Shown here piece by piece: positions 626-2,683 of a DNA stretch of 64,000 nt. The stretch covers positions 527,107 to 591,106 of the forward strand of contig NW_004797531.1 in NCBI RefSeq assembly GCF_000002075.1. The letters run 5' to 3'. Every line of letters starts with the position of its first letter. The first letter of the stretch is position 1. The notes under the pieces are model-generated. The model did no database searches, had not been told where the DNA came from, and worked only from the letters and a program-made list of their open reading frames with translations. A program made the translations under genes and the position numbers. This stretch comes from Aplysia californica. Its lineage: Eukaryota.

Positions 626-704
626 TCATCATTCCACGCATAGAAAGGACTCTTCAGCACATCACATCCGAGTTGGATGAAAGAGACAGAGAGGAATTTT
701 ACAG
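626..704 (+). CDS. ATP6V1D: V-type proton ATPase subunit D, penultimate coding exon
   Basis: ttcag|TC...TACAG|gtatt; encodes [27 protein letters not shown], matching the conserved V-ATPase D motif [27 protein letters not shown]. Confidence 0.93.
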
Positions 705-709
705 GTATT

Positions 710-1110
710 ATCATCATCATCATCATCATCCTCCATCATCCTCCATCATCATCATCATCATCATCCAGTGCCAAATCTGCGACAGACATCGGCGATCATG
801 GTTTTCCATTCATTCCTTTGCTTGGATGCTCTCAAAAAAGCTACGTTTCCCTGATCTTTCCCTGTTATCCATTTGTTTAGGTTCCCTAAGTATGTTGTTC
901 TGGGCCTTCCCCTGCCTCGCTTGCCCTCAATTTTGCCAGTGAGAGCTAGATGTTCAAGACCCTTATGTCTATTCAGGTGTCCCAAAAACAGCATTTGTCG
1001 TTTCCTGGTGGTTTTTAACTTTGAGCGTCCCACGTGGGCTTCATCAAGCACTACCTCATTTGATTTCTTTTCCTTCCACGATACTCTTAGTAGTCTCCTA
1101 AGAAACCACA
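710..1110 (-). mobile_element. 5'-truncated RTE-like LINE 3' end with (GAT)n tail
   Basis: MWFLRRLLRVSW...GHLNRH...[24 protein letters not shown] at 701-709 and 1111-1119. Confidence 0.88.
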
Positions 1111-2683
1111 ACAGGTATTTTAGAAGGTCAAATTAAAAATTCATCACTTTTGAGCTCTCTTTATTTTTGTTATGTTATTACAGATTGCCAATTTATGTTC
1201 GACTCTTCAAAAAAAAATATAGACAACATGAATTTGAAAAAATACACTTCGTTTGGCTGGTCCTTAGAAATTCAATCTGACAAAATTGTTGGTACTCCCT
1301 CTAAAAATATCATACATTATTATGTTTTTGAAAATATCATAAATACAAATTTCTTCACAAAACGATCTGGAAAAAACCCAACTATATTAGGAAAGGCATA
1401 CTGCTTCCAGTAAGCCAGTTTCTGCTGCGGAACAGTATGGGCAAGTTATATATTTCTCCCACTATATTTCTGAATTCCTAATTTTCATTTGCTCCCTGTC
1501 TATTTTGTGAAATTAAAATACAGCATACAGGGTGTCCAGCAAAGTCGTAAAGTCGTAAAAAAGTCGTAAATTCGATGCCCTGGCCGTAAAGGTCGTAAAT
1601 GGTAGTAAATGCGCCGTGAAGGTAGTAAACATTTGGTAAACGGTCGTAAATTAACCTGCATACTGAGTGATGAAGCTAGCAAGACTTTTCAGTAAACCCT
1701 AGCTGTGGTGCATGACTCCGTTTTTGCCGGTCGCGCTTGTGATATATTATTCGTTCACCTTTGTTCCCCGTCCGAGAGTACGTTTGACGCGAAAAGACGG
1801 CTATGGCGGCAGGCGAAAGTGTGTGTGACACCGAGGCTCGATCGGGAAAATCAAGATCCACTTTCGCTTTCAGAAATAACCGACGATTTACTGATAACTA
1901 ACGCAACATTTGTGACATGCAGGTTGTACAGTATATATACACACACACACACACATGTACATGTATATCTAAACGCTGTGCTGCCGCGCAAAAAAAAATT
2001 TAATCACTTGGACTCATCTCTGTACTGTCACATGTGTGTGTGTGGGGGGGGGGGGGTACCTGTATAGTCCTGGTGGTGTCTATAATTGTGAGTATTTAAA
2101 TACATATACATCTTGCTCTCACTTGGAAAAGAAATGGCAAAAGAGACAAAGGTAGACCAGGACTAATTTATGGGGAGAATTTGAACCCGTGGCCCACAGA
2201 GAAAGACCAAGACAATGTTGGTTTTTGGTCGTGGGCTGGGTTATTTAGAGCACCACAGCAGAGGAATGAGTGCGGAACTGTGGTCACTGATGTCCAACTG
2301 TGGTCACTGATGTCCATTCCTGATTCGACACTTGAACTTGGAAGACAATGAAGTGAAGAAAATAGTTGTCTCTAAACCAGTGCTCGTGTATTTCTCAAAG
2401 TATTATGGTGAGGCTGGACAAGACCTAAGCACCTGCAGTTCACTGTGGACTTTGCTTGAAATGAATTGTACTAAAAATTATTTTTGAATATTAAGAAGTC
2501 TTTCCTGTGTCCACGAACAAATTGGAAAGTAGGTGGGGAGTTGATAGAACGTCTTCTGTTTCAGTGTGGGTCTACGTTTGTACCTGGTTCTTGGATCCTG
2601 TCTTTTTCTGTATCTTCACTTAAGTGTATGGGTTGATTTCATTTTTAGCTGAAATTTATGTCCCCTTACATTATGACTATTTG

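What the first reader, a model, noticed from the sequence alone, without database searches (positions are those of the whole stretch)
701..1119. LINE target-site duplication copies the ATP6V1D splice donor
Seen: the truncated LINE (710-1110) is flanked by ACAGGTATT at 701-709 and 1111-1119, and that 9-mer spans the exon/intron junction (ACAG|GTATT). The exon now has two donors 410 nt apart: proximal GTATTA and distal GTATTT, the latter keeping the ancestral downstream intron. Using the distal donor would read in frame through [20 protein letters not shown] to a stop at 940-942. Inference: a possible poison (NMD) isoform in an essential housekeeping gene. Because the TSD contains CAG|GT, its second copy could also act as an acceptor, which is the geometry proposed for TE-driven intron gain.
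Basis: partly seen in the sequence, partly recalled or inferred. Interest (0 to 1): 0.7.

Follow-up and report, generated by a model that had tools for sequence, protein, structure and literature searches.

The report
LINE scar duplicates a splice donor
A short fragment of a jumping gene landed five bases inside the last intron of a sea-slug V-ATPase gene and copied the splice signal to its far end, but the gene's annotated protein uses the original signal and the copy is likely a silent chance scar.

Summary
A 5'-truncated, antisense LINE fragment of RTE type (710-1110) is flanked by ACAGGTATT (701-709, 1111-1119). Family homology stops exactly at 1110, so this is a real target-site duplication (TSD). 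It copies the donor of the last ATP6V1D intron, giving two GT sites 410 nt apart with equal predicted U1 pairing. The host is Aplysia californica by protein name.

Function is not shown. The annotated 247-aa protein uses the upstream donor. No RNA contig showed the downstream donor, but that test was weak. The copy is a poor acceptor, and intron, not exon, follows it, so this is not intron gain; at most it is a zero-length ratchet site. If the downstream donor is used at all, an in-frame cryptic exon from acceptors inside the LINE (21, 24 or 234 nt) is as plausible as the 410-nt poison form.

Both runs that cover the junction show only the filled allele. The family has at least 2,706 copies; a few donor-spanning TSDs are expected by chance. 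The scan noted the same geometry in other genomes. Ordinary.

The parts
626..704 (+). Penultimate coding exon of ATP6V1D (79 nt, ends in phase 2 at EEFYR)
   Evidence: PF01813 match; PDB subunit D residues 176-200; matches annotated protein P0003
701..709 (+). Upstream TSD copy ACAG|GTATT; holds the donor used by the annotated protein (GT at 705-706)
   Evidence: sequence; product matches P0003
710..765 (-). LINE 3' microsatellite tail, (GAT)n on the element strand, with two interruptions; the TSD's last three bases ATT lie in register with the ATC unit
   Evidence: TRF period 3, 18 copies
764..1110 (-). 3' end of the LINE ORF, open for 115 codons to the first TGA of the tail; 5'-truncated at 1110
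   Evidence: 96.5% to two long copies, one of which carries endonuclease and RT domains
851..880 (+). Candidate cryptic acceptor in the antisense LINE; with donor 1115 it would define a 234-nt in-frame exon (881-1114); use not shown
   Evidence: 16 of 20 pyrimidines, AG-free zone 38 nt; open frame
940..942 (+). Stop codon reached if the exon were extended to the downstream donor
1058..1093 (+). Pyrimidine tract and tandem AGs (1089-90, 1092-93); with donor 1115 they would define 24- or 21-nt in-frame microexons; use not shown
   Evidence: 16 of 20 pyrimidines, AG-free zone 40 nt for 1090; products
1111..1119 (+). Downstream TSD copy ACAG|GTATT (GT at 1115-1116), followed by the presumed ancestral intron; good donor, poor acceptor
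   Evidence: bridged unspliced by a contig of run X11
6336..6477 (+). Coding part of the last ATP6V1D exon
   Evidence: RNA contig of run X13 on 6395-6610

Best explanation
An RTE-type LINE fragment inserted antisense at position +5 of the last ATP6V1D intron and duplicated nine target bases, including the splice donor; the gene likely splices almost always from the upstream copy, leaving the downstream copy as a silent scar. Shown: the element, its truncation point, the TSD, the two donors, and an annotated protein made from the upstream donor. Inferred: target-primed reverse transcription, possibly primed by the ATT/ATC likeness between target and tail; preference for the upstream donor because it keeps a 79-nt exon rather than a 489-nt one; survival and probable fixation because the upstream copy kept -4 to +5 of the donor and lost only the +6 U1 pair. 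Any use of the downstream donor is predicted to be splicing noise, not regulation.
For: Homology ends at 1110 and 0 of 29 sister copies carry the 9-mer there. Length (346 nt plus tail) and TSD (9 nt) are typical: 30 copies picked by position run 56-1505 nt, median about 280, with TSDs of 7-13 nt in 15 of 30; RTE TSDs are reported as 7-15 bp, often starting with A in animals (PMC6007223, sections read), as here. P0003 (247 aa, the only member of its 90% cluster) reads EEFYR-LKKVQ. 0 of 121 proteins held at that point carry the read-through or microexon peptides; 95 of the 96 with the motif continue R-x-x-K without insert, 1 ends there. In RNA run X13 a 968-nt contig of depth 114 lies on the last exon with 693 nt before 6336, and the exon bin's depth (41.6) is what the 79-nt exon alone would give (my arithmetic). 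RNA run X16 shows no loose end at 1114/1115. In human F7, identical duplicated donors are used only at the most upstream copy (PMC1557585, abstract and discussion). Chance: 2,706 copies x 7 registers x an assumed 100,000-200,000 introns gives 2-4 donor-spanning TSDs.
Against: No junction read was seen for either donor: the tool skipped 700-774 and 6346-6394, the three raw RNA runs had almost no depth on the exons, and contigs drop rare forms. The downstream donor is predicted equal (-7.2 kcal/mol each) or one pair better, and this is the weakest of the four donors of the gene examined. PMC1557585 notes that older globin duplication studies gave opposite results, and its duplicates are 37 nt apart, not 410. 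No empty allele or orthologous site was found. The intron count in the chance estimate is assumed.
Confidence: 0.8

Rival explanations
1. The copied donor pairs with an acceptor inside the antisense LINE to make an in-frame cryptic exon (24 or 21 nt, adding SSLLRNHN or SLLRNHN; or 234 nt), included at a measurable level and escaping NMD.
For: Acceptors at 880 and 1090 look as good as the gene's real ones (16 of 20 pyrimidines, AG-free zones 38 and 40 nt). 7 of 13 listed acceptor-to-1114 exons are in frame without a stop. The donor is a full-strength copy.
Against: No such protein among 121 held; P0003's cluster has one member. No piece or loose end at 1091-1115 in X16 (a 24-nt piece may be too short to lay). 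Homologues tolerate no insert at this point (95 of 96), which lies in the C-terminal stalk helix (recalled).
Confidence: 0.08
2. One reading: the exon extends 410 nt to the downstream donor, meets a stop at 940-942 and is degraded by NMD, trimming V-ATPase D output.
For: Frame and stop confirmed; the stop lies 172 nt before the last junction, beyond the 50-55-nt rule (recalled, from vertebrates); downstream donor as strong as the upstream one. An NMD target would be hard to see in these data.
Against: Needs the upstream donor to be passed over and a 79-nt exon to grow to 489 nt; F7 precedent favours the upstream copy. No joint or loose end seen. Nothing shows conservation or regulation.
Confidence: 0.07
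3. The second copy is a ratchet point: 704>1115 is spliced first, removing the LINE and regenerating the ancestral donor, then the rest of the intron is removed.
For: Geometry fits a juxtaposed acceptor and donor, CAG|GT (definition in PMC8605326, passages). The final mRNA would be normal, so nothing seen here excludes it.
Against: Acceptor has 9 of 20 pyrimidines and three AGs (1090, 1093, 1102) between it and the nearest pyrimidine tract. Known ratchet points lie in long introns and need a downstream cryptic exon; this intron is about 5.6 kb and the site 410 nt in.
Confidence: 0.03
4. The 9-mer repeat is a coincidence or an assembly artefact, not a TSD.
For: No empty site was seen.
Against: Exact position at the truncation point, p about 3e-5; independent contigs in X10 and X11 match the LINE-TSD-intron join with 0 differences (X11 may be the assembly's own source).
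Confidence: 0.02

Closest known systems
RTE-clade LINE insertions with microsatellite tails (PMC6007223; abstract, end of Results and one Discussion section read)
   Same: Microsatellite 3' end, TSD within 7-15 bp, TSD starting with A on the element strand, short 3' microhomology with the tail; a T run lies 11-13 nt upstream.
   Different: Here the target happens to be an exon-intron junction; the paper does not deal with splice sites in the parts read.
Human L1 insertion at the RB1 intron-14 acceptor, and an Alu in BTK whose listed TSD ends in GAGTAAGT (PMC4859970; passages and table rows seen)
   Same: Non-LTR insertion exactly at a splice site, with the TSD covering splice-site bases.
   Different: Those are disease alleles with aberrant splicing. 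Here the host-side donor stays usable and the allele appears fixed. That the BTK TSD spans a real donor is my reading of the letters, not stated in the rows seen.
Human F7 intron-7 VNTR pseudo-donors (PMC1557585; abstract and discussion read)
   Same: Identical copies of the authentic donor downstream of it; only the upstream one used.
   Different: Made by a 37-bp minisatellite, 5-9 copies, mammalian; here two copies 410 nt apart with cryptic acceptors between them.
Intron gain by transposon insertion into AGGT / introners (PMC3443670, PMC11282704, PMC12130899, PMC3296678; passages seen)
   Same: A TSD supplies AG|GT at both ends of a transposon.
   Different: The model needs an exonic target so that exon follows the second copy. 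Here the target is an old donor (same intron position in distant eukaryote loci L116-L118, L120, L125, L126); no new intron-exon pair results.
Recursive-splicing ratchet points (PMC8605326; passages seen)
   Same: Juxtaposed AG and GT inside an intron, with a zero-length exon.
   Different: Weak acceptor, short distance, no cryptic RS-exon tested, no intermediate seen.

Membership tests
Non-LTR retrotransposon insertion by TPRT | Direct repeat of target DNA at both ends of the element | tested here: met
   9-nt repeat at the tail end and at the exact end of family homology
Non-LTR retrotransposon insertion by TPRT | Intact 3' end with simple-repeat tail, variable 5' truncation among copies | tested here: met
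   Tail 710-765; lengths 56-1505 nt in 30 copies
Non-LTR retrotransposon insertion by TPRT | Empty site with one copy of the repeat | tested here: inconclusive
   Only filled allele in the 2 of 4 runs that cover the join; no second locus in the assembly; none in metagenome contigs
RTE clade of LINEs | One long ORF with AP endonuclease and RT domains, ending at a microsatellite tail | tested here: met
   Long copy L076: three consecutive frames with PF03372 and PF00078; nearest proteins mostly about 990 aa with the same domains, on 3-4 kb contigs
RTE clade of LINEs | RT phylogeny with named RTE elements | not tested
   No named RTE reference among the 120 hits listed; one is named 'Craniofacial development protein 2', whose link to RTE-1 is recalled. 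The label RTE rests on architecture, tail, TSD size and recall.
TE-derived gained intron (introner-like) | Insertion in exonic sequence, exon on both sides | tested here: not met
   Intron follows the second copy; the intron position is shared with distant eukaryotes
TE-derived gained intron (introner-like) | Element spliced out precisely between the TSD copies | tested here: inconclusive
   No 704>1115 junction callable; acceptor weak
Poison (AS-NMD) isoform | Alternative form has a stop more than 50-55 nt before the last junction | tested here: met
   172 nt; rule recalled, not known to hold in Aplysia
Poison (AS-NMD) isoform | Alternative junction is used in RNA | tested here: inconclusive
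   Not seen; raw runs lack depth, contigs drop rare forms
Poison (AS-NMD) isoform | Rises on NMD inhibition; regulated or conserved | not testable with these tools
   No such data
Recursive-splicing ratchet point | Strong acceptor directly joined to a donor | tested here: not met
   AG|GT present, but 9 of 20 pyrimidines and AG-free zone 10 nt against 12-17 and 38-90 for 5 real acceptors
Recursive-splicing ratchet point | Recursive intermediate or lariat in nascent RNA | not testable with these tools
   No nascent RNA among the runs offered

The most novel reading that the evidence does not exclude
One LINE insertion built a complete new exon in an essential gene in a single step: acceptors from the antisense element plus a full-strength donor copied by the TSD give a 21/24-nt in-frame microexon (or a 234-nt exon) in the V-ATPase central stalk that is included in some Aplysia tissue such as neurons, or the copy works as a TSD-born ratchet point that removes the LINE first.
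Probability: 0.1. Interest if true: 0.45.

Novelty: new member of a known kind. Interest (0 to 1): 0.17.

Why it matters
As a silent scar it matters little: it shows how an insertion at a splice donor of an essential single-copy gene can be tolerated. It would matter more if the copied donor were used, since it would be a traceable one-step birth of a microexon, poison form or ratchet point, and the locus offers a natural two-donor competition test in a mollusc.

Tried and rejected
RNA junction test (X21-X23 raw, X13 contigs on 300-6900): swamped by repeats; 700-774 and 6346-6394 were skipped; raw runs had depth 0-0.3 on the last exon and look like 3'-end libraries; 79 further joints and 2,111 loose ends were not shown. 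Not evidence either way.

At site 1091, 5 of 13 plus-strand reads but 0 of 93 minus-strand reads lacked the family's C (Fisher p 1e-5). I set this aside: 0 of 27 and 0 of 34 plus-strand reads carried this copy's letter at 1020 and 990, other copies also carry T at 1091, and unspliced RNA would look the same.

Empty-allele test (4 of the 24 runs listed): X12 had no cover at the join, X16 covered only 1270-1459; whether X10 and X11 are DNA is the tool's guess. Own-genome search for a second haplotype: one locus only. Metagenome scans: 0 exact matches; 26 loci of relatives, none an Aplysia genomic site.

A truncation hot spot near 1110 (3 of the 30 best hits end within one base) was dropped as selection by the query: lengths in 30 copies picked by position are spread out.

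Search for sister cases: 127 of 2,706 3' ends have AGGTR within 30 nt; of 30 fetched (28 distinct places) 10 had a TSD called and 3 contained AGGT; upstream frames were only translated for 8 places, with no domain search, so whether any is a real donor is untested.

Literature: no paper held both 'target site duplication' and 'recursive splicing'; searches listed no paper on a LINE TSD duplicating a donor in a mollusc (listings only, unless cited as read). No supplements were opened; disease-insertion and introner supplements could hold closer cases. No structure or complex prediction was run, as no alternative protein is shown to exist.

Full report
Observation. The window reads GAATTTT ACAG|GTATT, then an ATC repeat (710-765), 345 nt of element, then ACAG|GTATT TTAG. 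The exon 626-704 matches residues 176-200 of V-ATPase subunit D. PF01813 finds one gene locus in the assembly, with four exons on this contig. A protein identical over an upstream exon is named V-type proton ATPase subunit D of Aplysia californica and lies on a contig of the same length as ours. It reads EEFYR-LKKVQ to the end at EILFD, which is the product of 704>6336. The insert therefore lies at +5 of the last intron. That intron position is old: genomic loci of distant eukaryotes have GT at the same codon position (L116-L118, L120, L125, L126).

The element. On the minus strand the insert is an open frame ending at the first TGA of a (GAT)n tail. The search returned 40 scored matches of 3,492 candidates, the others 96-97% identical, and 2,706 places carry the exact 14-nt 3' end, against 2 for the reversed control. 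A long copy carries endonuclease and reverse-transcriptase domains; its nearest proteins are mostly about 990 aa with the same domains. Architecture, tail and TSD size fit the RTE clade (PMC6007223). No tree with named RTE elements was built, so the clade label is partly recalled.

Is it a TSD? Yes. Family homology ends at 1110: 27 of 29 sister copies continue with element sequence, 2 of 29 stop a base later at their own TSD, and none continues with ACAGGTATT. The chance of that 9-mer there is about 6e-6 per placement. Among 30 copies picked by position, 15 had a TSD of 7-13 nt (one doubtful, in a TA repeat) and the median length was about 280 nt, so this copy is typical. On the element strand the TSD begins with A and the target's last bases (ATT) lie in register with the tail unit (ATC), in line with the priming model of PMC6007223; this is one case and only suggestive.

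Age and fixation. The copy differs from the majority of its 29 best matches at 11 of 345 sites, 3 of them private and 7 changing the amino acid; those matches differ from their majority by 1.1% on average (they were chosen as best hits). Against two long copies it is 96.5% identical, above the 92.8% median of the unselected 30. Flanking intron showed 0 differences in X10 (396 nt), X11 (423 nt), X12 (138 nt), X16 (190 nt) and X13 (270 nt). X11 bridges LINE end, TSD and intron in one contig; X10's contig starts at 1105 with six LINE-derived bases; no loose end at 1111 was listed in either (2 rows not shown), and the other two runs did not cover the join. X11 may be the assembly's source and the runs may be related animals. 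I infer that the insertion is probably fixed, so the empty allele is better sought in sibling species.

Two donors. With the genome's own U1 5' end, both donors pair at -7.2 kcal/mol; the downstream one keeps an extra isolated pair at +6. They rank 11 and 12 of 342 GT sites in the intron; the gene's three other donors examined score -7.3 to -9.2. So the copy is a credible donor. Three ways of using it exist. (b) A cryptic exon: the antisense LINE has acceptors at 880, 939 and 1090 with 15-16 of 20 pyrimidines and AG-free zones of 38-47 nt, like the real ones. Seven of 13 listed acceptor-to-1114 exons are in frame without a stop, among them 234, 24 and 21 nt. (c) As acceptor, 704>1115: the site has only 9 of 20 pyrimidines and three AGs lie between it and the nearest tract. 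Because intron follows, this would be a zero-length ratchet (PMC8605326), not intron gain, which needs an exonic AGGT target (PMC3443670).

What RNA shows. Little. The three raw runs had almost no depth on the exons, and the tool skipped the repeat at 700-774. RNA contigs of X13 include a 968-nt record of depth 114 on the last exon with 693 nt before 6336; the coding part before that point is 602 nt, and the depth of the bin holding the 79-nt exon (41.6) is what that exon alone would give. I read this as the normal mRNA without a long LINE piece; it cannot exclude a 24-nt insert, and the junction itself was not displayed. X16, RNA by the tool's guess and from the same sample as X10, showed no loose end at 1114/1115. 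Contigs drop rare forms, so none of this bounds a minor isoform. In proteins, P0003's cluster has one member, 0 of 121 proteins carry the alternative peptides, and 95 of 96 homologues with the motif continue without insert.

Mechanism, committed. Target-primed insertion put the element just inside the intron and copied -4 to +5 of the junction. The upstream copy kept everything but +6 and still closes a 79-nt exon, against 489 nt for the downstream copy. In human F7, identical downstream donors stay silent (PMC1557585), although that paper also cites older duplication studies with opposite results. I put 0.8 on a silent scar, 0.08 on a cryptic in-frame exon, 0.07 on the poison form, 0.03 on recursive splicing and 0.02 on no TSD.

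How unusual? With 2,706 copies, seven registers that place AG|GT inside a 10-nt TSD and an assumed 100,000-200,000 introns, 2-4 such events are expected in this family before selection. TSDs containing AGGT were found at 3 of 28 other places preselected for AGGTR, none shown to be an exon end. Human disease insertions at splice sites are on record (PMC4859970). This scan's earlier notes hold the same geometry in other genomes, with the same kind of verdict (AI notes, not checked here except for the RB1 and intron-gain papers they pointed to). No paper combining 'target site duplication' with 'recursive splicing' was found.

Papers seen: PMC6007223 abstract, end of Results, one Discussion section; PMC1557585 abstract and Discussion; passages of PMC3443670, PMC11282704, PMC12130899, PMC3296678, PMC8605326, PMC8819188, PMC4859970, PMC11203168, PMC5786205; others as search listings only. 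No supplements were read. The 50-55-nt NMD rule, the stalk-helix position of residue 201 and the CFDP2-RTE link are recalled.

Verdict. Observation confirmed; interpretation partly supported; a new instance of a known kind of retrotransposition scar; interest 0.17.

Noticed in passing
window 1-149: Two 52-nt tandem copies plus an inverted copy form a near-perfect fold-back (arms 1-38/48-85 and 1-41/97-137) in the preceding intron; the sequence just before the window reads N.
   Followed up: no
window about 315-495 and 3350-3395: A very abundant, heavily transcribed short repeat with poly(A)-like loose ends (depth in the thousands in raw RNA). At least four copies of the RTE family (L012-L014, L026) sit in similar sequence, which may be a preferred or merely abundant target.
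   Followed up: no
window 710-765: The tail is longer than in most sister copies and holds a 10-nt internal duplication; this shifts the frame of any read-through, so the His/Ser/Ile peptide depends on microsatellite history.
   Followed up: partly
window about 4093: Loose ends with a tRNA-like sequence in RNA contigs suggest a tRNA-derived SINE in the same intron.
   Followed up: no
L067 (G000:C74:815180), L047 (C4:724811), L055 (C34:1858349): Other family copies whose TSD contains AGGT; in L067 the second copy joins the element's own TTC to read TTCAG|GTGAAT. Not shown to be exon ends.
   Followed up: partly
window 2892-2991: A 100-N stretch lies in the last intron, so its true length and content there are unknown.
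   Followed up: no
P0122: An unnamed 994-aa protein is 85% identical to the Aplysia element's RT region, well above the other hits; it could be a close relative's copy or a horizontal transfer.
   Followed up: no
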